A model generated the notes under the pieces. It made no database searches and was not told the origin of the DNA. It saw nothing but the letters and a program-made list of their open reading frames with translations. Positions 6,858-18,254 of a stretch of 21,383 nt of DNA are shown here, piece after piece. Within the stretch, counting starts at the first letter, position 1, and each line of letters starts with the position of its first letter. The position numbers and the translations under genes are program-made. This stretch comes from a virus, in UHGV virus genome UHGV-0126007. One strand, given 5' to 3'.

Positions 6858-7148
6858 TTAGTGATTCAGACCGTTGCCGCGCCCGTCGAGAAAAACTTCC
6901 ACGAGCAAGTCACGGGTATAAGTGCGCTCGATGCCGCGATGCAGATAAAGCCGTCCGCGTAAATTAGCTGATGCAGTCCAGGTACCATCTTTGTGTTTGA
7001 CCAGCATTCCTGGCATGACCGCACCGCGATTAACGGTCTGCGTTCCGTAATGTTGATGAACCATAAAAACTCCTGCCCGTAAGCTGGGCTGCTGAACATA
7101 TAAAGACTTCTGCGCGTATTCAGGCGGTGGATGGCCGCCGGTTGTCAT
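6858..7148 (-). CDS. Hypothetical protein, 96 aa; first gene of the leftward early operon (kil/N position)
   Basis: First ORF downstream of the predicted PL; no arginine-rich motif, no similarity to N, Kil or cIII that I can recognise. Confidence 0.4.
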   Translation of the reverse strand: MTTGGHPPPEYAQKSLYVQQPSLRAGVFMVHQHYGTQTVNRGAVMPGMLVKHKDGTWTASANLRGRLYLHRGIERTYTRDLLVEVFLDGRGNGLNH

Positions 7149-7339
7149 AACTAAGCCGCCTCGTTGAAGCGACTAAGGTATGAAATGTTGAGTTGATTTC
7201 AGCTGGTCACACCGACGTTCACGCGTCCGTTTCATCCCTCGCACTACCCGAAGCCTGCTGAAATTCAAGCTGCGGATCTAAGCGGTCATCGCAACGGTGA
7301 AACAGGTGGTTACCGTATCGTTGTGTCGTTGCGATGAAT

Positions 7340-7420
7340 TTATTTAAAACTATAGTTGTTTTATCGTCAACAACAAAAGTTGTTTTATCGGTTGTTTTAA
7401 ATATAACTGGTTGTATTTAG
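7340..7420 (-). promoter_or_regulatory. PL promoter with OL operators (leftward early promoter)
   Basis: On the minus strand: -35 TTGACG (plus 7365-7370), 17-nt spacer, -10 TTAAAT (plus 7342-7347). Promoter and spacer are nearly identical to the predicted PR (TTGACT-17 nt-TAATCT). Flanked by repeated GTTGTTTTA / AACAAC half-sites similar to the OR half-site GGTTGTT. Confidence 0.6.
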
Positions 7421-7508
7421 GATGGATTTATTTTGTGACTTGCATCGCATAGCGATAACTGAAGTGAGGTCGTGGTGGTTTTTTGAACGGTGTGTGATGA
7501 GGGGAGGG

Positions 7509-7536
7509 CAAAATAAAACCCGGCACGGTGGCCGGG
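7509..7536 (-). terminator. Rho-independent terminator ending the cI-cargo operon (tImm-like)
   Basis: Stem CCCGGC / GCCGGG (7519-7536) with 6-nt loop; on the minus strand it is followed by UUUUAUUUUG. Sits downstream of the 147-aa gene and upstream of PL. Confidence 0.7.
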
Positions 7537-7613
7537 TTTAGATGATTGGTTAAGAGCGAGGGTAATGGGGAATGAAAAATCGCTTTACCTAATGCAAGGG
7601 TGCGAGCATTTTC

Positions 7614-8057
7614 TTAAGCACTAAAGAAAAAGTACATTGATAGCTTATAAAGTCCTGTTCCTGCAGCGATGATTGCTGGAACACCAAGCAATACCGCAAG
7701 CTTTGCGTCTGAAATCTTTCTATCGACAGCATCACTTGATGGCTTGTTTGTTAAGGATTCTTTTATAGAGTCCAGACGTGCAAGAATAGTTATCATATTT
7801 TTGTCGATAGCTTTAACGTCTGTTTTAAGTTCATCAACGTCTCGTTTGATATGAGCAACATCGGACTCCAGTTTTGCAACTTTTTCAGGCATGTTATCAC
7901 TCCCAGACCCACTGCTACCACTTGATTGTAGCATGTCCCATCTTTTTCCAGATATACCTGCTAGCTGGGAAGACGCACTGGAGTGCAAACAAAATGATTT
8001 TGCCGCCTTTGCAATTTTATCATTTAGGTTTGGAGCTTCGTAATAATCGTGTTTCAT
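7614..8057 (-). CDS. Tail-anchored coiled-coil membrane protein, 147 aa (rex-position cargo gene B)
   Basis: Gly/Ser-rich linker (SSGSSGSGSDN), heptad-like coiled coil (KVAKLESDVAHIKRDVDELKTDVKAIDKNMITILARLDSIKESL), C-terminal hydrophobic helix (LAVLLGVPAIIAAGTGLY). Architecture resembles XhlA-type phage membrane proteins (analogy only). AT-rich by eye. Confidence 0.5.
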   Translation of the reverse strand: MKHDYYEAPNLNDKIAKAAKSFCLHSSASSQLAGISGKRWDMLQSSGSSGSGSDNMPEKVAKLESDVAHIKRDVDELKTDVKAIDKNMITILARLDSIKESLTNKPSSDAVDRKISDAKLAVLLGVPAIIAAGTGLYKLSMYFFFSA

Positions 8058-8069
8058 AATTAATTACGA

Positions 8070-8333
8070 TTAGTTTGTTTTAGCTTTGTCATGCTGGTCG
8101 CGAATGAAGTCAGCCAATTTAAGCATCAATTCTTCGGGCATTCTAATGGTTGCAATGTTGTACTTTATGTTCTCAACATCGTCACTTTCATCAACAGGCC
8201 ATTCAGTTACATTATGAAAAAAAGAAATTGAACCTAGGCGCTGAGAGCCGTCACCAAACGAAGAGTAGCCAAACGCGTCGGCGTATGCATCGACACAGTT
8301 ATTTGATTTTTTAACAAGTGTTTTATTACTCAT
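8070..8333 (-). CDS. Hypothetical small soluble protein, 87 aa (rex-position cargo gene A)
   Basis: ORF directly downstream of cI on the same strand and 12 nt upstream of gene B; AT-rich; no recognisable family. Confidence 0.45.
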   Translation of the reverse strand: MSNKTLVKKSNNCVDAYADAFGYSSFGDGSQRLGSISFFHNVTEWPVDESDDVENIKYNIATIRMPEELMLKLADFIRDQHDKAKTN

Positions 8334-8415: not shown

Positions 8416-9105
8416 TTATCCGTGTTTTCTGTACGTCTGCGGCATGCTCCCAATAACCTTACCGAATATGAATACCCGGTTCATCTCGTCTTTCTCGATC
8501 GGGTCCCACGGTGAGTAGCTCTTGTTATCAGAGATAACCAGTAGCTTATCCTTCATCATTTGCAGGCGCTTTACATGGGCGGTGTCGTCATACAGAAACG
8601 CATAGATGCCATCACCGTCGAAAGATTTAACAGTGATATCAACGAACAGCAGGTCACCTGGTTCGATCGTCCCTGACATGCTGTCACCTCGCACGTTAAT
8701 GATGCGGATATTTTCCGCCTTCCTGCCATCGAACATGTGACGAGCATCGTCAAACGAGTACTCAACCGAGCGTAGAACTTCTACAAACTCACGGTTGATT
8801 ACACCTGGCCCGGCACTGACTTCTATATCAAGAACGTCAATTTTGAAGTATTTGGAATGGCTGACAGTTGATTGTATTGGTTGCACTGTACTGTCTGACA
8901 TATTTCCAACGCCAGAAGATAACCATTCTGCGCGTACACCCAAAGCGTTCGCGATCTCCACGATTTTAGTTGTTTGGTTAGCTTTCCCTGTTTCGATTTT
9001 CTGAATAGCAGCCTGGCTAACCCCGACCAAATCCCCAAGCGCCTTTTGTGTAAGGCCTCGCGCTAATCTGGCTTCTTTAAGTCTTTCTGAGAGTGTTGTT
9101 TTCAT
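8416..9105 (-). CDS. CI-like prophage repressor (N-terminal XRE-type HTH, C-terminal S24/LexA-like autopeptidase domain), 229 aa
   Basis: HTH region LTQKALGDLVGVSQAAIQKIETGK; C-terminal domain with the S24 nucleophile motif (NVRGDSMSGTI) and downstream Lys (HVKRL); divergent from a Cro-like gene across an operator region. Confidence 0.85.
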   Translation of the reverse strand: MKTTLSERLKEARLARGLTQKALGDLVGVSQAAIQKIETGKANQTTKIVEIANALGVRAEWLSSGVGNMSDSTVQPIQSTVSHSKYFKIDVLDIEVSAGPGVINREFVEVLRSVEYSFDDARHMFDGRKAENIRIINVRGDSMSGTIEPGDLLFVDITVKSFDGDGIYAFLYDDTAHVKRLQMMKDKLLVISDNKSYSPWDPIEKDEMNRVFIFGKVIGSMPQTYRKHG

Positions 9106-9209
9106 AGATCAAATGTACAACCAAGGTTTTATTTCATCAAACGAAAATGGTTGTTGACTAAAAACAACCATAGTTTTAATCTTGATTCGGATTAACCACG
9201 GAGGTTGTT
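9106..9209. promoter_or_regulatory. OR region: divergent PRM/PR promoters with operators
   Basis: PR: -35 TTGACT (9154-9159), 17-nt spacer, -10 TAATCT (9177-9182). Operator with 9-bp inverted repeat ATGGTTGTT-N7-AACAACCAT (9147-9171) overlapping the -35; SD GGAGG before cro. Confidence 0.65.
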
Positions 9210-9440
9210 ATGAACCCAGCAATCAAAACAGCGATCAATATCGTTGGTTCACAAAAGAAACTAGGCGATGCCTGCGAAGTTTCACAGCAGGCCGTCTATA
9301 AGTGGCTTCACAACAAAGCAAAGGTATCCCCTGAACATGTCGGCAGCATTGTTACGGCTACTGGTGGAGTTGTGAAGGCATACCAGATTCGCCCGGATCT
9401 TCCGAAGTTGTTTCCACACACCGAAAAGAACGCAGCTTAA
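9210..9440 (+). CDS. Cro-like HTH regulator (Cro/YdaS-type), 76 aa
   Basis: Small HTH protein (GDACEVSQQAVYKWL) transcribed divergently from the repressor from the PR-like promoter. Confidence 0.7.
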   Translation: MNPAIKTAINIVGSQKKLGDACEVSQQAVYKWLHNKAKVSPEHVGSIVTATGGVVKAYQIRPDLPKLFPHTEKNAA

Positions 9441-9452
9441 ATTTCCATTTCA

Positions 9453-9465
9453 CGCTCTTTAACAA
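9453..9465 (+). promoter_or_regulatory. boxA-like antitermination element (CGCTCTTTAACAA) in the rightward early transcript
   Basis: Matches the boxA consensus CGCTCTT(T)A and, from recall, nearly the whole rrn boxA (GCTCTTTAACAA) 13 nt after the cro stop; no boxB-like hairpin follows. Confidence 0.5.
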
Positions 9466-9509
9466 TAAGCAATCAACTTAACAGTCAATTCAAACTAAAG
9501 GAGTCAATT

Positions 9510-10049
9510 ATGCAACCACTTACATACCAACAGACTAGCGGATTTATTCCGACTGCGGTGATAAATCGTTCTCAAACAAAACAAGCTCCAGGCCACGAAA
9601 AAATCCGTGATGCCGTCCGCGCCTGGTCGGCTGTAGATAATCAGGATGTCGTTGCCGCACTCATTGTGAATGAGTATCGGGAGCAGGGCGACGGCACCAT
9701 CGATTTCCCTGATGATGTCAGCCGTGCACGCCAGAAGCTGTTCCGCTTCCTCGATAACAAATTCGATTCTGAAAAATACCGAAATAACGTGCGTGAACTG
9801 ACCCCGGCAATTCTGGCGGTACTACCGCTGGAATATCGCGGTTACCTGGTTGAGCAGGATAGCTTCATGACTCGGTTGGCTGAAATGGAAAAGGAACTCA
9901 GTGAGGCAAAACAGGCTGTCATTCTCAACGCACCACGCCACCAGAAACTGAAGGAAATGAGTGAAGGTATTGTGTCGATGTTTCGTGTGGACCCGGATCT
10001 GGCTGGTCCATTAATGGCGATGGTGACCACCATGCTGGGGGCAATATGA
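9510..10049 (+). CDS. Protein in the cII position, 179 aa; possibly a YdaT-family CII analogue
   Basis: Gene order repressor / Cro-like / this ORF / replication genes. Segment TPAILAVLPLEYRGYLV is reminiscent of YdaT-family proteins (weak, memory-based). Not lambda CII. Confidence 0.3.
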   Translation: MQPLTYQQTSGFIPTAVINRSQTKQAPGHEKIRDAVRAWSAVDNQDVVAALIVNEYREQGDGTIDFPDDVSRARQKLFRFLDNKFDSEKYRNNVRELTPAILAVLPLEYRGYLVEQDSFMTRLAEMEKELSEAKQAVILNAPRHQKLKEMSEGIVSMFRVDPDLAGPLMAMVTTMLGAI

Positions 10050-10135
10050 CAGGTCCAGAAATGGCGAAAGTCGGTCTGCGGGAACAGAACCGACTTTCAG
10101 GTGCAAATCGTAACACACTCATTGCGGGAGGAATT

Positions 10136-11065
10136 ATGGCAAACACTGCTGAGATATTCAATTTTCCAGTGCCGGATGCGGCACAAAAGGAGCCGCGCGT
10201 GGCAGATCTCGATGATGGTTATACGCGCATTGCAAATGAGTTGCTGGAAGCTGTGATGCTGGCCGGATTAACACAGCACCAGCTTCTGGTCTTCCTGGCT
10301 GTCATGCGCAAAACATATGGCTTTAATAAAAAACTGGATTGGGTGAGCAACGAGCAACTTTCCGAGTTGACCGGGATATTGCCGCACAAGTGTTCTGCTG
10401 CAAAAAGTGTTCTGGTAAAGCGTGGGATTTTTATTCAGAGCGGGCGGAATATCGGCATTAATAATGTGGTCAGTGAATGGTCAACATTACCCGAATCAGG
10501 TAAGAAAAATAAAGTTTACCTGAAAGAGGTAAATTTACCTGAATCAGGTAAGAAAAGTTTACCCAAATCAGGTAAAGGCACTTACCCGAATCAGGTAAAC
10601 ACAAAAGACAAACTAACAAAAGACAATATAAAACCTTATTCGTCCGAGAATTCTGGCGAATACTCTGACCAGCCAGAAAACGACCTTCCTGTGGTGAAAC
10701 CGGATGCTGCGATTCAGAGCGGCAGCAAGTGGGGGACAGCAGAAGACCTGACCGCCGCAGAGTGGATGTTTGACATGGTGAAGACCATCGCGCCATCAGC
10801 CAGAAAACCGAATTTTGCAGGGTGGGCTAACGATATCCGCCTGATGCGTGAGCGTGACGGGCGTAACCACCGCGATATGTGTGTACTGTTCCGCTGGGCA
10901 TGCCAGGACAACTTCTGGTCCGGTAACGTGCTGAGTCCGGCCAAACTCCGCGACAAGTGGACCCAGCTCGAAATCAACCGAAACAAGCAACAGGCTGGCG
11001 TGACAGCCGGCAAACCAAAACTCGACCTGACGAACACTGACTGGATTTACGGGGTGGATTTATGA
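10136..11065 (+). CDS. O: Replication initiator O: non-lambda N-terminal origin-binding domain with lambda-type C-terminal P-interaction domain; the frame is open from 10046
   Basis: N-terminus MANTAEIFNF...VADLDDGYTRIANELLEA...RKTYGFNK follows the lambda O pattern but is divergent. C-terminus WANDIRLMRERDGRNHRDMCVLFRWACQDNFWSGNVLSPAKLRDKWTQLEINRNKQQAGV...DWIYGVDL matches lambda O. Start preferred at ATG 10136 with SD GGGAGGAA. Confidence 0.85.
   Translation: MANTAEIFNFPVPDAAQKEPRVADLDDGYTRIANELLEAVMLAGLTQHQLLVFLAVMRKTYGFNKKLDWVSNEQLSELTGILPHKCSAAKSVLVKRGIFIQSGRNIGINNVVSEWSTLPESGKKNKVYLKEVNLPESGKKSLPKSGKGTYPNQVNTKDKLTKDNIKPYSSENSGEYSDQPENDLPVVKPDAAIQSGSKWGTAEDLTAAEWMFDMVKTIAPSARKPNFAGWANDIRLMRERDGRNHRDMCVLFRWACQDNFWSGNVLSPAKLRDKWTQLEINRNKQQAGVTAGKPKLDLTNTDWIYGVDL
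10487..10640. repeat. ori: Replication origin inside the O gene: four to five ~18-bp iterons plus adjacent AT-rich region
   Basis: Direct repeats TTACCCGAATCAGGTAAG, TTTACCTGAATCAGGTAAG, TTTACCCAAATCAGGTAAA, CTTACCCGAATCAGGTAAA plus a degenerate copy, each with internal dyad TTACC...GGTAA, followed by ACAAAAGACAAACTAACAAAAGACAATATAAAACC; same layout as lambda ori. Confidence 0.85.
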
Positions 11066-11763
11066 AAAACATCGCCGCACAGATGGTTAACTTTGACCGT
11101 GAGCAGATGCGCCGGATCGCCAACAATATGCTGGAACAGTACGACGAAAAGCCGCAGGTACAGCAGGTAGCGCAGATCATCAACGGTGTGTTCAGCCAGT
11201 TACTGGCAACTTTCCCTGCGAGCCTGGCTAACCGGGATCAGAACGAACTGAACGAAATCCGCCGCCAGTGGGTTCTGGCTTTCCGGGAAAACGGGATCAC
11301 CACAATGGAACAGGTTAACGCAGGAATGCGCGTAGCCCGTCGGCAGAATCGACCATTCCTGCCATCACCCGGGCAGTTTGTTGCATGGTGCCGGGAAGAA
11401 GCATCCGTTATCGCCGGACTGCCAAACGTCAGCGAGCTGGTTGATATGGTTTACGAGTATTGCCGGAAGCGAGGCCTGTATCCGGATGCGGAGTCTTATC
11501 CGTGGAAATCAAACGCGCACTACTGGCTGGTTACCAACCTGTATCAGAACATGCGGGCCAATGCGTTGACTGACGCGGAATTACGGCGCAAGGCTGCCGA
11601 TGAACTGTCCTGTATGACCGCACGAATTAACCGTGGTGAGGCTATACCTGAACCAGTAAAACAACTTCCTGTCATGGGCGGTAGACCACTTAACCGGGCT
11701 CAGGCTCTGGCGAAGATCGCAGAAATCAAAGCTAAGTTCGGACTGAAAGGAGCCAGTGTATGA
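11062..11763 (+). CDS. P: Lambda P replication protein (DnaB helicase loader), 233 aa
   Basis: MKNIAAQMVNFDREQMRRIANNMLEQYDEKPQVQQVAQIINGVFSQLLATFPASLANRDQNELNEIRRQW...AKFGLKGASV matches lambda P; start overlaps O stop. Confidence 0.95.
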   Translation: MKNIAAQMVNFDREQMRRIANNMLEQYDEKPQVQQVAQIINGVFSQLLATFPASLANRDQNELNEIRRQWVLAFRENGITTMEQVNAGMRVARRQNRPFLPSPGQFVAWCREEASVIAGLPNVSELVDMVYEYCRKRGLYPDAESYPWKSNAHYWLVTNLYQNMRANALTDAELRRKAADELSCMTARINRGEAIPEPVKQLPVMGGRPLNRAQALAKIAEIKAKFGLKGASV

Positions 11764-12053
11764 CAGGCAAAGAGGCAATTCTTCACTACCTGAAAACGCA
11801 CCGGACTTTCTGCGCGCCGGATGTAGCTGCGGCAACAGGCGCAACAGTAACCAGCATAAATCAGGCTGCGGCTAAAATGGCGCGGGCAGGAATCTTGGTC
11901 ATTGATGGTAAGGTCTGGCGAACGGTGTATTACAGATTCGCTACCAGGGAAGAACGGGAAGGAAAGGTGAGCACTAACCTGATTTTTAAGGAGTGTCGCC
12001 AGAGTGCCGCGATGAAGCGGGTGTTGATGGTTTGGGGGAGGGTAGGGGTATGA
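11760..12053 (+). CDS. ren: Lambda Ren, 97 aa
   Basis: MTGKEAILHYLKTHRTFCAPDVAAATGATVTSINQAAAKMARAGILVIDGKVWRTVYYRFATREEREGK... closely matches lambda Ren from recall. Confidence 0.85.
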   Translation: MTGKEAILHYLKTHRTFCAPDVAAATGATVTSINQAAAKMARAGILVIDGKVWRTVYYRFATREEREGKVSTNLIFKECRQSAAMKRVLMVWGRVGV

Positions 12054-12250
12054 GCATGATGGATTTCGCAGAAACTAAAAAGGCTATCGACGCCATCACA
12101 ACCGACTGGTCTATCCGAGGACCGTATCACGAAGACGACGGGAAATATTACGCCTTGCTTCGTGGAGAGTGGGTTGGTGGCGGGTATATCGGAAAACGGA
12201 AAGCCCTTGATGCCATTCTCGAAAAGTTAATCCAGGAGGCCGCCCAATGA
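12050..12250 (+). CDS. Hypothetical nin-region protein, 66 aa
   Basis: ATG at 12050 overlaps the ren stop (ATGA); the ORF continues in frame to 12250 and its stop overlaps the next start. Confidence 0.4.
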   Translation: MSMMDFAETKKAIDAITTDWSIRGPYHEDDGKYYALLRGEWVGGGYIGKRKALDAILEKLIQEAAQ

Positions 12251-12477
12251 GCAACATCGACAAACCAATGACAAACCGTGAACTGGTGGATGCCGCCATT
12301 GAATTGGCCGGAGAGTTTTATGCGATGCAGGGCTATTCGCATCGTCCTGGCTTCAAGTATTGGCAATCTCCGCACCCGCATGAGCGCCTGTGCTTTGAAA
12401 TGGCTTGCGTGGCATTCGAAACCATTCGCGGCTCAGATGTAATGGACGCCGTATCTGAGTTGGAGGATGAAGAATGA
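12247..12477 (+). CDS. Hypothetical protein, 76 aa (starts MSNIDK, as does the next gene)
   Basis: Translationally coupled ORF (ATGA overlaps at both ends); shares the N-terminal MSNIDK with the downstream Ead/Ea22-like ORF. Confidence 0.45.
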   Translation: MSNIDKPMTNRELVDAAIELAGEFYAMQGYSHRPGFKYWQSPHPHERLCFEMACVAFETIRGSDVMDAVSELEDEE

Positions 12478-12887
12478 GCAACATCGACAAACGCGCATTA
12501 CGTGAAATCGCTGAGGCAGCAGTTGGTGCGCATGAGCGCCTTAGTGTTATGCCGCCTGATGACATTTTCGATATCTCACTGGCAGAAGGAACTCAGCTTG
12601 ATGCAGATATCACTGCCTTGAACGCGCTGAACTCCGCAGCCAACCCAGCCACAGTGCTGGCGCTGCTGGATGAGCTGGAAGCCAAAGACCAGAGGATTGC
12701 TGTGCTGACCGAATCGCTCAAGCAGACGGTTTCAGGATACAAATCCTGCCTGCGTACCGGACATGAGCGCATTCTTGACCTTGGCGGTGACTGTGACGCG
12801 CCAGAAGTGATGATTGCAGGCAATCCTGACATTCAGCAGGCGCAGAAGCTGATCGCCGCCGCATCCGGTAAAGGAGAGGCATCATGA
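12474..12887 (+). CDS. Ead/Ea22-like family protein, 137 aa (paralogue of 3658-4065)
   Basis: Contains SAANPATVLALLDELEAKDQRIAVLTESL, matching the motif in the minus-strand ORF at 3658-4065. Confidence 0.5.
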   Translation: MSNIDKRALREIAEAAVGAHERLSVMPPDDIFDISLAEGTQLDADITALNALNSAANPATVLALLDELEAKDQRIAVLTESLKQTVSGYKSCLRTGHERILDLGGDCDAPEVMIAGNPDIQQAQKLIAAASGKGEAS

Positions 12888-13690
12888 GCACTATTACCAA
12901 ACAATGGCTGCAGCAGAAAATTGCCGACATGGAAGCAGCCAGAGATGAAATCCCGTTCGGTCTGGACGAAGGCGACAGCAACACGCTGGCGGCACTGCGT
13001 ATCGCGCTGGCATCGCTCGAAGCGGAGCCTGCCATTCACCGGTGGCGTCGTGTGACCTCTGAGCCATACGGCCCCTATCCTTGGCATTATGGTGATTTTA
13101 TCGGCTTCTCAAAGCCCGTTGATGGGATTGAGGATGAGTATTTTTACTCCGCCCCGCCAGAGCCAGCCAATGCCGAAACCGTAGCCTGGCTGTGGTCACA
13201 CAGGAAACACCCGAGCGAAGTCACGCTTGTTCGCCCTGAAGATGATGAGAGAGCGGAGGGTGCTCACTGGTCTGGCTGGAGTTGTCAGGCGCTTTATGCA
13301 GCACCGCCAGTTCCGGTATCTGTGCCCACATTCGAGAAATGGTGTGAGTTGACTGAGCAGAAACCTGTCGGATGGGTGCGTGATGCTATGAAAGAAGCGT
13401 ATGACGGATGCCGCGACGCCATGCTTCAGGGTGCCGAAAAAGCCGAGTCGCCCACCACCATGCAGACCGCGCCAGCCCTAGATTCTTCGCCAAAAATTTC
13501 CGAGTCGCCCGTCAGCAACTCTCCGGTGATTCCGGATGGTTGGGTGCTGGTTCCTAAGGAGCCAACTCCAGAAATGCGTGAGGCGTACCATCAGGCGCAG
13601 GAAGAGTGTGAAGATGGCGGTAGATTATGGAGCCCAGACCACCAATGGAAGGCCATGATCGCAGCAGCACCGCAGCAGGAGGCGAAGTGA
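12884..13690 (+). CDS. Lambdoid accessory protein, 268 aa; shares N-terminal and NSPVIPDGW segments with 2093-2890
   Basis: N-terminus MSTITKQWL...LAALRIALASLEAE parallels MTTITKERI...ELARIALASLEREL of the minus-strand protein; shared NSPVIPDGW; C-terminal VPKEPTPEMREAYHQAQ...WKAMIAAAP. Confidence 0.5.
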   Translation: MSTITKQWLQQKIADMEAARDEIPFGLDEGDSNTLAALRIALASLEAEPAIHRWRRVTSEPYGPYPWHYGDFIGFSKPVDGIEDEYFYSAPPEPANAETVAWLWSHRKHPSEVTLVRPEDDERAEGAHWSGWSCQALYAAPPVPVSVPTFEKWCELTEQKPVGWVRDAMKEAYDGCRDAMLQGAEKAESPTTMQTAPALDSSPKISESPVSNSPVIPDGWVLVPKEPTPEMREAYHQAQEECEDGGRLWSPDHQWKAMIAAAPQQEAK

Positions 13691-13741
13691 TTATGTCGTG
13701 ACAGCATAATTGCGATGTCAACGATAAGCAGAGGTTTGAAA

Positions 13742-13936
13742 ATGAAATCACAATCACCAGTGCAGCATGAAGTTAACATCGACGGCAAAGAGTATGTTGT
13801 CACAGTAGTCCAAACCGGCAAGTCAACGTGGAGGGCATGGGGAGATTCCTGGGGGCGCCATATAGTCGAAACAGGTTCTAGCGAACATAGCGCGCTTTCT
13901 CATTGGAAAGCAAAAGCTTTAGTTATGAATGGGTAG
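13742..13936 (+). CDS. Hypothetical small protein, about 64 aa (the frame is open from 13715)
   Basis: ORF with SD-like AGAGG about 9 nt upstream of ATG 13742; no recognisable family. Confidence 0.35.
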   Translation: MKSQSPVQHEVNIDGKEYVVTVVQTGKSTWRAWGDSWGRHIVETGSSEHSALSHWKAKALVMNG

Positions 13937-13949
13937 CGCGGAAACTTTG

Positions 13950-13985
13950 AAGGTATAATCCCCTCAAATAATCGAGGGGGTTTTT
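13950..13985 (+). promoter_or_regulatory. Hairpin (CCCCTC...GAGGGGG + T-run) immediately upstream of the moron start codon, with a TATAAT hexamer just upstream
   Basis: TATAAT at 13953-13958, then stem CCCCTC / GAGGGG with 8-nt loop and TTTTT running into the ATG at 13986; the 3' arm GAGGGGG doubles as the likely Shine-Dalgarno. Confidence 0.45.
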
Positions 13986-14495
13986 ATGTCTGGTTGGGAT
14001 AACGGTATAGATGCAGTTTCTGCGATTGCAGCTATCGCATCTGCGGTAGCAACTTATTTAGCATGGCGATCCTCAGAAGCTAGCAGGGCCACATCCGAAA
14101 AAGCTTTGCAGTTGCAAGGAAAGCAGTATTTGTACGAGACATTAAAAGCTTGCGCTGAGAGAGCGAATTCATACTCAAAAGGAAAGAAAGGGGCTGACTG
14201 GAGCTTTCATGACGCAGCCAATATTGTTCGATGTTTGAACATGGCAATGGGGAGCATAATAAATTACTCAGATACCAACAATCAGGATGCAATGAAAGGT
14301 CTGAAGCAATTCTTTATTAGTCAATTAAACATGGAGCTTTTTGAAGAGCTCAACTATGAGGTTGGGCCTGATGCCTTCTTTCACGGAGAGGAGCTAACCA
14401 GCATGACGAGCGATATTTACTCGCAGTGGTTAAACATTATTTCATTCTTTAACCTCATGATTGTCACAGATGATGACCTCGCCGATGAAACATAG
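13986..14495 (+). CDS. Membrane-anchored protein of unknown function, 169 aa (AT-rich moron in nin region)
   Basis: N-terminal hydrophobic helix (AVSAIAAIASAVATYLAW) followed by about 140 aa of soluble domain; composition visibly more AT-rich than flanking genes; bracketed by a hairpin upstream and a 187-bp non-coding spacer downstream. Confidence 0.55.
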   Translation: MSGWDNGIDAVSAIAAIASAVATYLAWRSSEASRATSEKALQLQGKQYLYETLKACAERANSYSKGKKGADWSFHDAANIVRCLNMAMGSIINYSDTNNQDAMKGLKQFFISQLNMELFEELNYEVGPDAFFHGEELTSMTSDIYSQWLNIISFFNLMIVTDDDLADET

Positions 14496-14682
14496 CTTGA
14501 TTGATTTTCCATAATCAACCCGCCATAATCATGTCATCGGAGCCTGAACAACTCCGGTGACTTCTGCGCTAAACGGGGACGTTTATGCGCACATACAATC
14601 CAAACTCACTTCTCCCGTCACAGATGCAGAAATGCACCTGCGATTTTTTGTATTCTGCGTTTTACCTCTACGGAGGTGAAGC

Positions 14683-15138
14683 GTGAACCTCCCACAAGAC
14701 GGCATCAAACTACATCGCGGCAACTTCACCGCTATCGGCCAGCAGATCCAGCCTTATCTGGAGGACGGAAAATGCTTTCGCATGGTGCTTAAACCGTGGC
14801 GTGAGAAACGCAGTCTTTCCCAGAATGCACTCAGCCACATGTGGTACAGCGAAATCAGTGAATACCTCATCAGCAGGGGTAAAACGTTCGCCACTCCAGC
14901 TTGGGTAAAAGATGCTCTCAAACACACATATCTCGGTTATGAAACCAAAGACCTGGTTGATGTCGTAACCGGTGATATCACCACTATCCAGTCGTTACGC
15001 CATACCTCCGACCTTGATACCGGAGAGATGTATGTCTTCCTGTGTAAGGTTGAAGCCTGGGCGATGAATATTGGCTGCCACCTGACTATTCCGCAGAGCT
15101 GCGAGTTCCAGCTGCTGCGTGATAAGCAGGAGGCGTAA
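14683..15138 (+). CDS. ybcN: YbcN-like protein (DUF1367, DLP12 ybcN homologue), 151 aa, GTG start
   Basis: [55 protein letters not shown]... recalled as DLP12 YbcN; SD GGAGG upstream of the GTG. Confidence 0.7.
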
Positions 15139-15308
15139 TGGCTACACCGCTTATTCGTGTCATGAACGGACACATCTACAAAGTACCAAATCGTCGTAAG
15201 CGTAAGCCTGAGCTGAAACCATCCGAAATACCAACACTGCTCGGATATACCGCCAGCCTGGTTGATAAAAAATGGTTGCGACTGGCAGCTAGGAGGAATC
15301 ATGGCTGA
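15138..15308 (+). CDS. ninE: NinE-family small protein, 56 aa (below the ORF-track size cutoff)
   Basis: Hand translation from ATG 15138 (overlapping the ybcN stop): [56 protein letters not shown]; basic, NinE-like; its stop overlaps the ybcO start. Confidence 0.6.
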   Translation: MATPLIRVMNGHIYKVPNRRKRKPELKPSEIPTLLGYTASLVDKKWLRLAARRNHG

Positions 15309-15591
15309 TTTGAGAAAAGCAGCGCGTGGTCGGGAATGCCAGGTAAGAATCCCTGGCGTATGTAATGGCAATCCTGAAACGTCTGTACTGGCACATATCC
15401 GGCTGGCTGGATTGTGCGGTACCGGTATCAAACCGCCAGACCTGATTGCCACCATTGCATGTTCTGCCTGTCACGACGAGATCGACCGTCGCACGCATTT
15501 TGTTGACGCTGGATATGCAAAAGAATGCGCGCTGGAAGGTATGGCGAGAACGCAGGTTATCTGGCTGAAAGAGGGGGTAATTAAGGCGTGA
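15301..15591 (+). CDS. ybcO: YbcO-like protein (DUF1364, putative nuclease), 96 aa
   Basis: [64 protein letters not shown]... matches DLP12 YbcO from recall; the frame is open from 15262, ATG 15301 preferred. Confidence 0.75.
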
Positions 15592-15950
15592 ATACCTACA
15601 ATATCACATTACCCTGGCCGCCGAGCAATAATCGCTATTACCGCCATAATCGCGGGCGCACGCACATCAGCGCAGAGGGGCAGGCATACCGCGAAAACGT
15701 CGCCCGAATCATTAAAAACGCAATGCTGGATATCGGCCTGGCTATGCCTGTGAAAATCCGCATTGAGTGTCACATGCCGGATCGCCGTCGCCGTGACCTG
15801 GATAATCTACAAAAGGCCGCTTTTGACGCACTCACCAAAGCAGGTTTCTGGCTGGATGATGCTCAGGTCGTTGATTACCGCGTTGTGAAGATGCCGGTTG
15901 TCAAAGGTGGAAAGCTGGAACTGACCATCACTGAACAGGGAGATGAATGA
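15588..15950 (+). CDS. rusA: RusA Holliday-junction resolvase, 120 aa
   Basis: [100 protein letters not shown]... matches E. coli prophage RusA. Confidence 0.93.
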
Positions 15951-16087
15951 TGTTTGAGTTTTATATGGCAGAACTTCTTCGCCACCGCTGGATGCGCCTG
16001 CGCTTATATCGTTTCCCCGGTTCTGTTTTGACCGATTACCGAATACTGAAGAATTACGCCAAAACACTGACAGGAGCAGGAGTATGA
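15947..16087 (+). CDS. ylcG: YlcG-like small protein, 46 aa (below the ORF-track cutoff)
   Basis: Hand translation [46 protein letters not shown]; start overlaps the rusA stop, as for ylcG between rusA and quuD in DLP12. Confidence 0.55.
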
Positions 16088-16172
16088 AGTCAGAGATAAC
16101 AATCAACTAATACTGTTTTGTTGATTTTTGCTTGTAATTGGCGTTCTGGTCTGAGTTTTGTGGAGTAAGTTG

Positions 16173-16556
16173 ATGCGTGATATTCAGATGGTTCTTGAGC
16201 GTTGGGGAGCGTGGGCGGCTAATAATCATGAAGATGTGACCTGGTCGTCCATTGCCGCCGGTTTTAAGGGATTAATTCCTTCAAAAGTAAAATCTCGCCC
16301 ACAATGTTGTGACGATGACGCGATGATCATTTGCGGGTGCATGGCCCGTCTGAAAAAGAACAACAGCGATTTGCACGATTTATTAGTAGATTATTATGTA
16401 GTCGGTATGACATTCATGTCACTGGCAGGTAAGCATTGCTGCTCTGATGGTTATATCGGGAAAAGGTTACAAAAGGCTGAGGGCATAATTGAAGGGATGT
16501 TAATGGCATTAGATATCCGGTTAGAGATGGATATCGTTGTTAATAACTCTAATTAA
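16173..16556 (+). CDS. quuD: Late-gene antiterminator Q (phage 82 / DLP12 QuuD type), 127 aa
   Basis: [90 protein letters not shown]... matches QuuD from recall; the ORF-track TTG at 16158 is probably not the real start. Confidence 0.88.
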
Positions 16557-16589
16557 TACGCCAATTATTTACTAAAAGTTATTAAAAAT

Positions 16590-16730
16590 GGGGCGTTGAA
16601 ACGCCCCCAAAAATAAAGGGTAATATATAACAGAAGGTTTGTATAGTTAGAAGCAAGGTTGTGCTTCTAAAGGAAGTGGCTTGAGGGAGCCACTTATATG
16701 TTGGGGAGGCAAAGCCTCCCACAACATATC
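16590..16730. promoter_or_regulatory. Cluster of four GC-rich hairpins between convergent Q and porin genes; candidate late promoter PR'/qut and terminators
   Basis: Hairpins at 16590-16607 (GGGGCG/CGCCCC), 16649-16668 (AGAAGCA/TGCTTCT), 16676-16693 (GTGGCT/AGCCAC), 16700-16725 (GGGAGGC/GCCTCCC). Possible -35 TTGAAA (16596-16601) and -10 TAATAT (16621-16626), with a -10-like TATAGT in the initial transcribed region. Confidence 0.4.
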
Positions 16731-16744
16731 TTTTAGTAATCAAA

Positions 16745-17827
16745 TTAGAACTGGTAAACCATACCTACAGCAACGATATCATCGGTAGCAACGCCAGATG
16801 CTTTCGTGAAATCGCTCTTATCAATCAGGTTGATTTTGTAGTCAACAAAAGTGGACATATTTTTGTTGAAGTAATAGGTTGCACCTACATCAACATATTC
16901 AACCAGGTCCTGATCACCCCAAACACCCAAGTCTTTTCCTTTAGAATGCAGGTAAGCAACGGATGGACGCAGGCCGAAGTCGAACTGATATTGTGCAACA
17001 GCTTCGAAGTTTTGTGCTTTGTTGGCAATATGGTTATTACCAAAAACAGTCATGTTCTGGGTTTCAGAATAGGTGGTGGCCAGATAGATGTTGTTCGCAT
17101 CATATTTCAGACCAGCTGCCCATACTTCAGCATTTTGACCAGAAGCATTCAGACCGTTGTTACCGTAGATAACCTGATTATTAGTGCGATCAGATTTAGC
17201 ATAGGTTGCACCCACGCCGAATCCTTCATACTCATAAGTAGTTGAGAAACCGAAACCATCGCCATTAGCTTCAGTTACTTCATTTCGGTCATTTTTGCCC
17301 TGATACTGAGCTGCAAAGTTCAGGCCATCAACCAGACCAAAGAAGTCGTTGTTACGATAAGTTGCAACACCTGTGGTGCGACCAGTCATGAATACATCTG
17401 TTTGGGTCCAGGTATCGCCACCGAATTCTGGCAGAACGTCAGTCCACGCACCGATGTCGTATGCTACACCGTAGTTACGGCCGTAATCGATTGAGCCGTA
17501 GTCACCGAATTTCAGGCCTGCAAATGCAAGACGGGTTTTGTCTTTGGAGGAACCTTGAGATTCAGCGCGGTTGCCTTTGAATTCATATTCCCACTGACCG
17601 AAACCAGTCAGTTGATCGTTGATTTGGGTTTCACCTTTGAAGCCAAGACGGGCATAAGTAGTATCACCATCATCTGCATCATTAGAGGAGAAGTAGTGCT
17701 TAGCATTAACTTTCCCGTACAGATCCAGCTTGTTACTGTCTTTATTATAAATTTCAGCTGCCTGAGCAGACATCGCCATCAGTACTGATGCAGCTACAGC
17801 AGAAATTGCCACTGTTAATTTTTTCAT
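16745..17827 (-). CDS. nmpC: Phage-borne general porin of the OmpC/OmpF family (NmpC / Lc type), 360 aa, apparently intact
   Basis: Signal peptide [23 protein letters not shown] then [17 protein letters not shown]...; typical porin beta-strand repeats; C-terminal aromatic (F); same position and orientation as nmpC between quuD and essD in DLP12. Confidence 0.85.
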
Positions 17828-18254
17828 CGTGAGCCCTTTTTTTTGAACTATTATTAAAAAATGATGTCACTGCGCGATAAATATTCATCTAATCAATATG
17901 ATTATTTCAAGATGTAAGTTTTGGTTTCTCGTTTGATTTGTGAAGTAGATCTCTATTTTTATCTGAACTTTTTCTATCGAATCCTATTCATGGCTCTTGG
18001 CTGAATAAAAATAAATCTATTAGCCAATTTATATTAACGGTTGTTATTTATAAGTGCTCTATGATTTGAAGGTTCAATTTAAATCGGCTAAAAATAACAC
18101 TGGGAATTATTTGTTGGTTATTTGTTGAGATTTGCTTATGTATTTGTGGTGGTGTTTTCAATACTCGGTAGCATTCTCGCAAATATCATTTAGTGGTTTA
18201 CGTACGTAAAAAATTGGTTATGCTGTTAAGAGTGGTTACTTCGTCACACAGCTT

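What the first reader, a model, noticed from the sequence alone, without database searches (positions are those of the whole stretch)
13937..14682. Self-contained AT-rich moron in the nin region encoding a membrane-anchored protein, with its Shine-Dalgarno buried in a hairpin
The 169-aa ORF (one N-terminal TM helix, about 140-aa soluble domain, no recognisable family) is more AT-rich than its neighbours. It is preceded by a TATAAT hexamer and a hairpin whose 3' arm (GAGGGGG) is the ribosome-binding site, and followed by 187 bp of non-coding DNA with a weak hairpin and T-run. This looks like a moron with its own promoter and terminator inserted between the accessory genes and ybcN. The hairpin could act both as a terminator for upstream read-through and as a translational gate. 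Morons at this position often encode defence or lysogenic-conversion functions.
Basis: partly seen in the sequence, partly recalled or inferred. Interest (0 to 1): 0.65.

Follow-up and report, generated by a model that had tools for sequence, protein, structure and literature searches.

The report
Prophage accessory gene behind terminator-RBS cassette
A real but uncharacterised membrane-anchored prophage gene sits in a swappable cargo slot just before the nin genes, and the hairpin in front of it is one copy of a widespread 40-base terminator-plus-ribosome-site cassette, not a private regulatory device.

Summary
The 169-aa ORF (13986-14495) is a real, conserved gene. It belongs to the function-unknown family phrog_1779, found in about 36 clusters, nearly all enterobacterial prophages. 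It is AT-rich (GC 0.43; neighbours 0.51-0.57).

The TATAAT, hairpin and buried Shine-Dalgarno sequence are all present. They form one copy of a cassette, TATAAT-CCCCTC-loop-GAGGGG-T-run-ATG, found in at least 120 viral contigs. There it precedes at least seven unrelated accessory gene families. The phage HK639 GenBank record annotates it as a terminator, and its layout matches the hairpin just upstream of lambda ninB, which I take to be tR2.

Homology between different left-hand contexts starts exactly at TATAAT. Homology to K-12 DLP12 starts right after the stop codon. The mobile unit is therefore 13954 to about 14500.

The 187-bp "non-coding tail with own terminator" is wrong. It is the conserved, highly structured leader of the ylcH-ybcN module and contains a 33-aa ORF.

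An own promoter is unproven. The hexamer is conserved (41 of 45 unbiased copies), but no -35 or extended -10 accompanies it.

The protein is an N-terminally anchored helical bundle with no structural, Pfam or PADLOC match. A defence role is conjecture.

Verdict: a cargo-slot accessory gene behind a terminator/RBS punctuation cassette, not a classical moron. Moderate interest.

The parts
13954..13959 (+). TATAAT hexamer. It marks the left edge of the shared mosaic unit, and its last three bases form the base of the stem.
   Evidence: Homology between different upstream contexts begins here (A6). In an unbiased sample, 41 of 45 distinct cassettes have TATAAT, one CATAAT and one TACAAT. No -35 enrichment accompanies it.
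13957..13982 (+). Terminator-like hairpin with the layout of the lambda tR2-position hairpin: AAUCCCCUC / GAGGGGGUU, 9 bp, 8-nt loop.
   Evidence: Terminator scan. Fold energy -14.2 kcal/mol, z = -3.1. 122 of 126 cells paired across variants, with compensatory changes. The same cassette is annotated 'terminator' in HK639, HM208537 41560-41586.
13974..13980 (+). Shine-Dalgarno sequence GAGGGGG, which is the 3' arm of the hairpin.
   Evidence: Read directly from the sequence. The distance from stem end to start codon peaks at 6 nt and is 5-9 nt in 66 of 92 distinct cassettes.
13981..13985 (+). T5 run, serving both as the terminator U-tract and as the SD-to-AUG spacer.
13986..14495 (+). 169-aa ORF of the phrog_1779 family: an N-terminal hydrophobic anchor followed by an all-helical domain and an acidic C-terminal tail.
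14007..14066 (+). Coding region for the hydrophobic, Ala-rich N-terminal helix (about residues 8-27), the putative N-out/C-in membrane anchor.
   Evidence: The 19-residue Kyte-Doolittle (KD) hydropathy mean is 1.74 here and 1.5-2.4 across the family. N-flank is net negative and C-flank net positive in all members. The AF2 model has one long helix spanning residues 5-64 that projects beyond the bundle. A 288-aa relative has extra TM-like segments ahead of the domain.
14501..14529 (+). Right boundary: start of the conserved ylcH/ybcN leader. It holds the inverted repeat TTGATT-N6-AATCAA overlapping a promoter-like TTGATT-17-CATAAT. This belongs to the neighbouring module, not to the ORF.
14533..14591 (+). 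Two conserved leader hairpins. Hairpin 1 has a covarying stem and the invariant loop CCUGAACA. Hairpin 2 presents GGGGA, the ylcH SD, in its loop.
14585..14686 (+). 33-aa ylcH-type ORF. Its stop overlaps the ybcN GTG start, and its 3' end forms a hairpin that buries the ybcN SD.
   Evidence: PGAP annotation. K-12 ylcH b4588 sits at the same place. Fold result.
13742..13936 (+). 64-aa ORF, the left neighbour (SD AGAGG). It is not part of the mobile unit.
   Evidence: A homologue is annotated in E. coli SCU-113 ahead of a different cargo gene. Other copies of the 169-aa gene have different left neighbours.

Best explanation
The locus is one cargo unit (13954 to about 14500) in the variable slot that lies just upstream of the conserved ylcH-ybcN/ninB leader in the rightward early operon of enterobacterial lambdoid prophages.

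The unit has two parts:
- a portable cassette of about 32 nt, built as TATAAT, then a CCCCTC/GAGGGG hairpin, then a T-run, then ATG;
- a gene for a small protein that is non-enzymatic (inferred) and anchored by its N-terminus to the inner membrane, with a helical bundle on the cytoplasmic side.

The cassette acts first as an intrinsic terminator of the lambda tR2 type, punctuating the operon. Only RNA polymerase made termination-resistant during lytic growth reads into the gene efficiently.

Because the 3' arm of the terminator is also the Shine-Dalgarno sequence, translation of read-through mRNA is additionally limited by the -14 kcal/mol hairpin. The gene is therefore a tightly gated delayed-early accessory gene rather than a free-standing moron.

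Shown here: the gene is real and conserved; the unit boundaries; the cassette's wide distribution; the conservation of its stem and spacing.

Inferred: terminator activity; translational gating; membrane topology.

Guessed: the protein's role. The most likely guess is an exclusion, abortive-infection or host-takeover function exerted by protein contacts at the membrane.
For: Gene:
- Full-length phrog_1779 match.
- 29 clusters found by single-sequence search and 36 by profile search of 1.84 billion representatives, with conserved W/F/P/N positions.

Position:
- In eight protein-anchored loci (the window, E. coli, Enterobacter, Phytobacter, Citrobacter, Kluyvera, Scandinavium) the gene follows the replication and accessory genes. 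In six of the eight it directly precedes the ylcH-type leader and a ybcN or NinB gene; L009 has the leader but other genes after it, and L010 lacks the leader.

Boundaries.

Cassette:
- At least 120 viral contigs carry it, before at least seven downstream families and after at least ten upstream genes.
- In annotated E. coli prophages it always lies between the replication genes and ybcN, on the same strand.
- It is annotated as a terminator in HK639.
- A palindromic copy sits between convergent genes with no gene following it.
- The hairpin upstream of lambda ninB has the same build: 8-bp stem, 8-nt loop, -15.7 kcal/mol, T-run, then the first nin gene.
- It is the best + strand terminator-like site in the 8-kb early region.
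- Stem pairing is 96.8%, with compensatory changes.
- SD-to-start spacing is constrained.

Protein:
- AF2 model with pLDDT 88: one 60-residue N-terminal helix plus five helices.
- Hydrophobic anchor with a conserved charge asymmetry.
Against: - No experiment or transcript data exist for this element. Terminator efficiency is unknown, and the U-tract is short (5 T), being replaced by other bases in some relatives such as L008.
- I found no N-like gene and no match to the HK639 putL-like RNA in the window. How polymerase would read through is therefore not established.
- The strict conservation of TATAAT, including the three bases outside the stem, is not explained by a pure terminator model.
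- A -14 kcal/mol hairpin over the SD would almost silence translation unless something opens it. That argues for an alternative route of expression.
- The TM prediction for this particular copy is marginal.
- The protein's function has no supporting homology at all.
Confidence: 0.55

Rival explanations
1. True moron with a built-in insulator. TATAAT is the -10 element of a weak or activator-dependent sigma-70 promoter. Transcription would start about 7 nt downstream, in the distal 5' arm or first loop bases. The gene's own mRNA would then lack the 5' arm and carry a free SD. Read-through transcripts from upstream would be terminated or translationally silent. The gene would be expressed in the lysogen and serve the host, for example through superinfection exclusion or defence.
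For: - The hexamer is as conserved as the stem in an unbiased sample: 41 of 45 TATAAT, and the variants CATAAT, TACAAT and TATACT keep the critical A2 and T6.
- Meanwhile the loop has diverged freely.
- 0 of 143 generic CCCCTC/GAGGGG terminators from other phages carry the hexamer.
- The unit's left boundary is exactly the hexamer.
- AT-rich composition.
- A distant homologue is kept intact in a small prophage remnant in three samples.
- This reading solves the problem of the buried SD.
Against: - No -35 enrichment in 86 distinct flanks compared with background, and I saw no TG extended -10 in the flanks read.
- The promoter scan does not call the site.
- The last three bases of the hexamer covary with the 3' flank as stem pairs: AAT/ATT changes to ACT/AGT.
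- In palindromic copies the hexamer is simply the outer stem.
- There is no downstream terminator belonging to the gene.
- No expression data exist.
Confidence: 0.25
2. The cassette works mainly at the DNA level as a recombination linker. A conserved junction of 30-40 bp on the left, together with the conserved ylcH leader on the right, would let homologous recombination (Red or RecA) swap accessory genes in and out of the slot. Any terminator or RBS properties would be secondary.
For: - The same cassette joins many different upstream and downstream genes.
- Homology breakpoints coincide with the cassette and with the leader.
- 33 of 99 distinct cassettes have the leader 0.5-1.1 kb downstream.
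- The slot holds unrelated cargo in other prophages: emrE-ybcKLM in DLP12, theta homologues and a 210-aa protein.
Against: - A linker needs only sequence identity. It does not explain the maintained base pairing with compensatory changes or the constrained SD-to-start spacing.
- The variable loop interrupts the identity, leaving stretches of only 12-15 bp.
- This role is compatible with the terminator/RBS function rather than an alternative to it.
Confidence: 0.12
3. The hexamer and hairpin act on RNA or on the elongating polymerase in another way. Options are a sigma-70-dependent pause site that boosts termination, an AU-rich standby or S1-binding site for 30S loading next to the structured SD, or an RNase E entry site that leaves a protective 5' hairpin.
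For: - A conserved AU-rich hexamer lies immediately 5' of a stable hairpin that contains the SD.
- -10-like elements inside transcription units are known to cause sigma-dependent pausing; this is discussed for HK022 putL in PMC9378689.
Against: There is no direct evidence. These are mechanisms recalled from other systems, and none was testable here.
Confidence: 0.08

Closest known systems
Phage lambda hairpin just upstream of ninB, which I take to be tR2 (one of the nin-region terminators removed by the nin5 deletion)
   Same: An intrinsic-terminator-type hairpin with an 8-nt loop and a T-run, lying in the rightward early operon after the replication and ren genes and directly ahead of the start codon of the next gene. 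The energies are comparable: -14.2 against -15.7 kcal/mol.
   Different: - In lambda the SD (GGGGGAGAGGG) lies downstream of the T-run. Here the 3' arm of the stem is itself the SD.
- Here a conserved TATAAT abuts the stem.
- Here the element is a portable cassette found before many different genes.
- Calling the lambda hairpin tR2 rests on my own knowledge, not on a tool result.
'Terminator' feature of phage HK639 (GenBank HM208537, 41560-41586)
   Same: It is the same cassette: TATAATCCCCTCAAATAACCGAGGGGGTTTTATG, in the same region between the accessory genes and the theta/NinB genes.
   Different: - In HK639 it precedes an unannotated 60-aa ORF, not the 169-aa gene.
- The annotation appears to be a sequence-based prediction. 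I could not read the paper.
- HK639 carries a putL-like antiterminator RNA that I did not find in the window.
Morons of lambdoid phages (HK97 gene 15, lambda bor/lom), as defined in PMC3594210
   Same: An extra, AT-rich gene of foreign composition, present in some related genomes and absent from others. It encodes a small membrane-associated protein, as HK97 gp15 does.
   Different: - No terminator of its own.
- The promoter is unproven.
- It lies in line with the early operon rather than in the late region.
- It is exchanged as cargo of a defined slot rather than appearing as a simple insertion.
Membrane-bound superinfection-exclusion or abortive-infection proteins of temperate phages (P22 SieA/SieB, lambda RexB, HK97 gp15)
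   Same: Small prophage-encoded proteins with a membrane anchor. One distant homologue (P0065) lies in the leftward early operon two genes after an N-like gene. As I recall, that is roughly where sieB lies in lambda and P22.
   Different: No sequence or profile similarity to any of them (Pfam and PADLOC searches were negative). No phenotype is known.

Membership tests
Moron (independent transcription unit added to a phage genome; PMC3594210) | Extra DNA, present in some related genomes and absent from others at the same place | tested here: met
   The unit 13954 to about 14500 occurs in 26 of 5426 E. coli genomes. More than 3000 genomes carry the adjoining ylcH-ybcN module with other cargo in the slot.
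Moron (independent transcription unit added to a phage genome; PMC3594210) | Base composition differs from the surrounding genes | tested here: met
   GC is 0.429, against 0.51-0.57 upstream and 0.509 for ybcN.
Moron (independent transcription unit added to a phage genome; PMC3594210) | Own promoter | tested here: inconclusive
   A conserved TATAAT is present. There is no -35 enrichment, I saw no extended -10 in the flanks read, and the scan does not call a promoter.
Moron (independent transcription unit added to a phage genome; PMC3594210) | Own terminator downstream of the gene | tested here: not met
   The DNA from 14501 onward is the conserved leader of the next module, present whatever the upstream gene. 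No hairpin with a T-run lies between the stop codon and that leader.
Moron (independent transcription unit added to a phage genome; PMC3594210) | Expressed from the repressed prophage | not testable with these tools
   No transcript data are available.
Intrinsic (rho-independent) terminator of the lambda nin region (tR2 type) | G+C-rich stem-loop followed at once by a U-run | tested here: met
   9-bp stem with 5 G-C pairs, an 8-nt loop and T5.
Intrinsic (rho-independent) terminator of the lambda nin region (tR2 type) | Lies within the rightward early operon, on the same strand, between the replication genes and the nin genes | tested here: met
Intrinsic (rho-independent) terminator of the lambda nin region (tR2 type) | Terminates transcription and is overridden by the phage's antitermination system | not testable with these tools
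In addition, no N gene or put-like RNA was found in the window.
SD-sequestering translational hairpin | The Shine-Dalgarno sequence is base-paired in a stable local structure at a functional distance from the start codon | tested here: met
   GAGGGGG is the 3' arm of the stem, which folds at -14.2 kcal/mol. The spacing is 5-9 nt in 66 of 92 distinct cassettes.
SD-sequestering translational hairpin | The structure changes translation yield | not testable with these tools
   This needs translational fusions with disrupting and compensatory mutations.
phrog_1779 (phage protein family of unknown function) | Full-length match to the family profile | tested here: met
   E 2.5e-77, residues 3-167 matched to profile positions 2-169 of 169.
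Known anti-phage defence proteins (PADLOC-DB 2.0) | Match to any defence-system model | tested here: not met
   No hit at E up to 1 for the window protein or for four relatives.
HeLo / Helo-like / Bell membrane-disrupting cell-death domains | Profile or fold similarity to the helical bundle with an N-terminal membrane-inserting helix | tested here: not met

The most novel reading that the evidence does not exclude
The 40-nt cassette is a portable, three-in-one expression module for prophage cargo genes.
- It stops and translationally silences read-through from the early operon.
- Its TATAAT launches a short leader that lacks the 5' arm of the hairpin. The ribosome site would then be open only on self-initiated transcripts, so translation would depend on where the transcript began.
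- Its conserved sequence serves as the left-hand junction for swapping cargo by homologous recombination.

Under this reading the 169-aa membrane-anchored protein is made in lysogens and is a new kind of exclusion or abortive-infection factor.
Probability: 0.15. Interest if true: 0.7.

Novelty: new variant of a known kind. Interest (0 to 1): 0.42.

Why it matters
If the cassette works as inferred, it gives a simple rule for reading the accessory region of thousands of enterobacterial prophages. Cargo genes there are punctuated by one recurring terminator/RBS element and bounded on the right by a conserved leader.

That rule defines a slot where new accessory genes can be harvested systematically. 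The slot already holds theta homologues, a DUF1643-like protein (my reading of its N-terminal motif; it scans only as function-unknown phrog_3230), a 210-aa protein with weak HEPN-like matches, and this membrane protein.

It also poses a concrete, testable question: how is a gene whose ribosome site sits inside a terminator stem expressed at all?

The protein itself is an orphan fold with a membrane anchor, present in about 4% of complete E. coli genomes if the O104:H4-type variant is counted. Its function is unknown.

Tried and rejected
Searches on the protein that found nothing:
- Pfam, NCBIfam, PADLOC and a PDB sequence profile gave no hit.
- By eye, I found no conserved Rx4-6H (HEPN-type) motif in the 169-aa family alignment.
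- The HeLo-like lead from a UniRef name was not supported.

Searches on RNA and promoter elements that found nothing:
- Rfam gave no family in the region or anywhere in the window.
- A sigma-70 -35 element upstream of the TATAAT is not enriched.
- No match to the HK639 putL-like or M3-like RNAs, and no N-like ORF left of the repressor.

Ideas that did not hold up:
- A two-gene module with the upstream 64-aa ORF was rejected. Other copies of the gene have different left neighbours.
- Translational coupling to the upstream ORF as the general way to open the hairpin does not hold. The distance from the upstream stop codon to the hexamer ranges from -5 to more than 50 nt and is 18 nt in the window. 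My automatic ORF calls for this measure are rough.

Methods that failed:
- The generic pattern CCCCTC..GAGGGG+T-run mostly returned ordinary terminators from unrelated phages.
- The MAFFT alignment of the cassette mis-registered the 3' arm, so I counted pairs on hand-registered arms.
- RNAalifold missed leader hairpin 1 for the same reason.
- The literature search for ylcH returned only unrelated words.
- King et al. 2011 on HK639 is not held in the library.
Full report
**Setting.** The window is a lambdoid prophage integrated at the lambda attachment site (between ybhC and bioA) of E. coli. A 99.9%-identical copy is annotated in strain QDFD216. The gene order is int-xis, bet/exo/gam, S24 repressor, cro-like, CII-like (YdaT domain), O, P and ren-like. 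Then come several small accessory genes (Ead/Ea22-like and others), the finding itself, and ylcH-ybcN-ninE-ybcO-rusA-ylcG-quuD. The finding therefore sits in the rightward early operon, at the border between the accessory genes and the nin-type genes.

**The observation.**
- The ORF 13986-14495 (169 aa) exists and PGAP annotates it as a hypothetical protein.
- Its GC content is 0.429. The five upstream genes are at 0.51-0.57, ybcN at 0.509 and the whole window at 0.466.
- Upstream anatomy: TATAAT 13954-13959; stem 13957-13965/13974-13982 (9 bp); loop 13966-13973; GAGGGGG 13974-13980; T5 13981-13985; ATG 13986.
- The hairpin folds at -14.2 kcal/mol, with 1 of 200 shuffles as stable. It is the best + strand terminator-like site in the 8 kb from 9000 to 17000.
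- No sigma-70 promoter passes the scan at the TATAAT.

**The 187-bp tail is not the gene's own.** The stretch 14496-14682 is not empty.
- PGAP annotates a 33-aa ORF (14585-14686) whose stop overlaps the ybcN GTG start. K-12 has ylcH at the same place.
- The stretch folds far better than shuffles (z = -5.3).
- Aligning the window with K-12 DLP12, an O104:H4 prophage and strain PEC422 shows that similarity to DLP12 begins at about 14501, right after the ORF's stop. In DLP12 the upstream gene is ybcM.
- The same leader occurs in 50 sequence variants among the loci I collected, after many different genes and before either ybcN-type or lambda-type NinB genes.
- It is therefore the leader of the next module, not the terminator of this gene.

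**The gene family.**
- The protein matches phrog_1779 over its full length (E 2.5e-77, function unknown).
- It matches nothing in Pfam, NCBIfam, PADLOC or PDB sequences.
- A word-indexed search of 5.8 billion proteins found 29 clusters, all enterobacterial where named. A profile search of 1.84 billion representatives found only 36.
- About 26 complete E. coli genomes carry this allele. A further 175 match only a short stretch at 76% DNA identity; the one I examined (O104:H4) encodes a 47%-identical homologue in the same position.
- In eight loci found through the protein alone, the gene follows the replication and accessory genes. In six of them it directly precedes the ylcH-type leader and a ybcN or NinB gene; L009 has the leader but other genes after it, and L010 lacks the leader.
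- More distant relatives sit elsewhere. One lies in the leftward operon two genes after an N-like gene. Another lies in a small prophage remnant after a fragment of a theta gene. These have ordinary ribosome sites and no cassette.

**The protein.**
- With a deeper alignment, AlphaFold gives a confident model (pLDDT 88). It has one 60-residue N-terminal helix (residues 5-64) followed by five helices.
- The first 20 or so residues of that helix are Ala-rich and hydrophobic. The 19-residue Kyte-Doolittle hydropathy mean is 1.74 here and up to 2.4 in relatives.
- Every member has a net negative N-flank and a net positive C-flank. This fits an N-out/C-in anchor with the bundle in the cytoplasm.
- A 288-aa relative has extra TM-like segments in front of the domain.
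- Conserved positions are structural (W, F, P, N, A) with no catalytic-looking set. An acidic tail (EDLxD) is common.
- One relative's UniRef name, "Fungal N-terminal domain-containing protein", hinted at HeLo-like death domains. Neither Pfam scans of 30 members nor the fold searches support this.

**The upstream element is a widespread cassette.**
- Four of the eight protein-anchored loci have the same TATAAT-CCCCTC-loop-GAGGGG element despite only 50-88% protein identity.
- In those loci the element precedes at least seven unrelated families:
  - DNA polymerase III theta homologues, in 51 of the 116 matches that have a downstream ORF;
  - a 60-aa protein (30 matches);
  - the 169-aa family (15 matches);
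  - a secreted-looking protein;
  - a DUF1643-like protein (my reading of its N-terminal motif; it scans only as function-unknown phrog_3230);
  - a two-TM protein, and others.
- It follows at least ten different upstream genes.
- In annotated E. coli prophages it lies between the replication genes and ybcN, on the same strand.
- Phage HK639's GenBank record annotates the very same sequence as a terminator.
- The hairpin just before lambda ninB has the same build: 8-bp stem, 8-nt loop, -15.7 kcal/mol, T-run, then the start of the first nin gene. I take this hairpin to be tR2 from memory.
- A perfectly palindromic version stands between convergent genes with no gene after it. This fits a terminator role that does not depend on a downstream gene.

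**What is conserved in the cassette.**
- *Stem.* In 14 variants found through the protein, so without bias toward the element, 122 of 126 stem cells are standard pairs. Sliding one arm by one or two positions gives only 59-71%. Compensatory changes occur at three pairs, including AAT/ATT to ACT/AGT and CCCCTC/GAGGGG to CCCTTC/GAAGGG, plus an inserted G:C pair.
- *Spacing.* The distance from the stem end to the start codon peaks at 6 nt and is 5-9 nt in 66 of 92 distinct copies. The 3' arm acting as the ribosome site is thus the usual design. A minority, including some 169-aa family members, have a separate SD further down.
- *Hexamer.* I searched with the stem and ATTTTTATG but no constraint on the hexamer. 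41 of 45 distinct copies have TATAAT, one CATAAT and one TACAAT. By contrast, 0 of 143 generic CCCCTC/GAGGGG terminators from other phages have it. The loop varies freely.
- *What is missing.* The 86 distinct upstream flanks show no more -35-like hexamers than random positions in the same loci, and I saw no TG extended -10 in the flanks read.

**Unit boundaries.** I aligned six copies of the gene that have different left neighbours. The invariant columns begin at the T of TATAAT. The mobile unit is therefore 13954 to about 14500. The 64-aa ORF to the left (13742-13936) is not part of it. That ORF has a homologue in another prophage, where a different 210-aa gene follows in the same slot.

**Interpretation.**
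- The best-supported reading is a cargo gene in a defined slot of the early operon, preceded by a tR2-type terminator whose 3' arm doubles as its ribosome site. On this reading it is a delayed-early gene gated at both transcription and translation.
The hexamer would be a -10 element, and transcripts starting about 7 nt downstream would lack the 5' arm and carry a free SD.
- Hexamer conservation and the problem of translating through a -14 kcal/mol hairpin favour the rival. The absence of a -35 or extended -10, the covariation of the hexamer's last three bases as stem pairs, and the lack of a terminator of the gene's own count against it.
- I could not establish how polymerase reads through in this phage. 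I saw no N-like ORF and no match to HK639's putL-like RNA.
- A DNA-level role as a recombination linker is compatible with either model. It is suggested by the coincidence of homology breakpoints with the cassette and the leader.

**Function of the protein.** Nothing ties it to a known defence or exclusion family. The case for a host-beneficial or exclusion role rests on four points:
- the membrane anchor;
- the variable-slot location;
- slot mates such as a 210-aa protein with sub-threshold DUF4145/HEPN_Swt1 matches around an RNKYAH motif;
- one relative retained in a prophage remnant.
I treat that role as a guess.

**Verdict.** The claims of being self-contained, with own promoter and own terminator, are only partly right. 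The locus is a new member of an uncharacterised family, behind a variant of a known kind of element. The wide reuse of that element was not described in anything I could find, apart from a bare "terminator" annotation in the HK639 record.

Noticed in passing
window 14501-14686: The conserved leader before ybcN is a composite element with four parts. (1) An inverted repeat TTGATT-N6-AATCAA, with conserved arms and a variable centre, overlaps a promoter-like TTGATT-17-CATAAT. (2) A hairpin has a covarying stem and the invariant loop CCUGAACA. (3) A second hairpin has five compensatory pairs and shows GGGGA, the ylcH SD, in its loop. (4) A terminal hairpin buries the ybcN SD, and the ylcH stop overlaps the ybcN start. 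The leader occurs in 50 variants, including K-12 DLP12 and HK639, and before lambda-type NinB as well. There is no Rfam match. It could be a regulated internal promoter, or a nut/put-like antitermination site for the nin genes.
   Followed up: partly
window 13742-13936 (+): A 64-aa ORF with a good SD (AGAGG) is not annotated by PGAP in the near-identical genome. A 58-aa homologue is annotated in E. coli SCU-113 ahead of a different cargo gene. In strain S51 a deletion fuses the 268-aa upstream gene in frame to this ORF's C-terminal half. It matches no family.
   Followed up: partly
L006 3225-3857 and L329 5280-5912 (same slot in other E. coli prophages): A 210-aa protein (phrog_5712) occupies the slot just before the ylcH leader. 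It has an RNKYAH motif and sub-threshold Pfam matches to DUF4145 and HEPN_Swt1. It may be a HEPN-type abortive-infection nuclease, but PADLOC gives no hit.
   Followed up: partly
L021, L037, L070, L117 (9720-9750), L118: A perfectly palindromic form of the cassette, TATAATCCCCTC-N6-GAGGGGATTATA, lies between a short theta-like gene and a convergent 163-aa gene. The theta-like gene's TAA stop sits inside the hexamer. A second hairpin follows the cassette.
   Followed up: partly
window 7148-7614 and 7614-8333 (- strand): No N-like gene lies left of the repressor. Instead there is an 87-aa ORF, then a 147-aa coiled-coil protein with a C-terminal TM segment (phrog_3556, with weak XhlA/hemolysin-like matches), then a 466-nt stretch with no ORF of 60 aa or more on either strand and none longer than 48 aa on the - strand. 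No match to the HK639 putL-like RNA was found. The phage's antitermination system is unidentified.
   Followed up: partly
L001 (window + 301): 17046-18128, 20012-21469, 24589-25455: The near-identical prophage is defective and carries host-type cargo. An ompC-like porin follows quuD, trkG follows the lysis genes, and the terminase gene is cut by an IS1 element next to ybhB.
   Followed up: no
HK639 record HM208537 41586-41766 (L366 3538-3720): The 60-aa ORF that follows the cassette in HK639 (MSNEEMTPAEKYK..., phrog_16632) is not annotated in the GenBank record. It is nevertheless the second most common gene after the cassette in IMG/VR, with 30 loci.
   Followed up: no
L331 5065-7371: A distant homologue of the 169-aa protein (P0065, 28% identity) lies in the leftward early operon two genes after an N-like gene. 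A second 171-aa ORF lies two genes further on. I did not check whether the two are paralogues.
   Followed up: no
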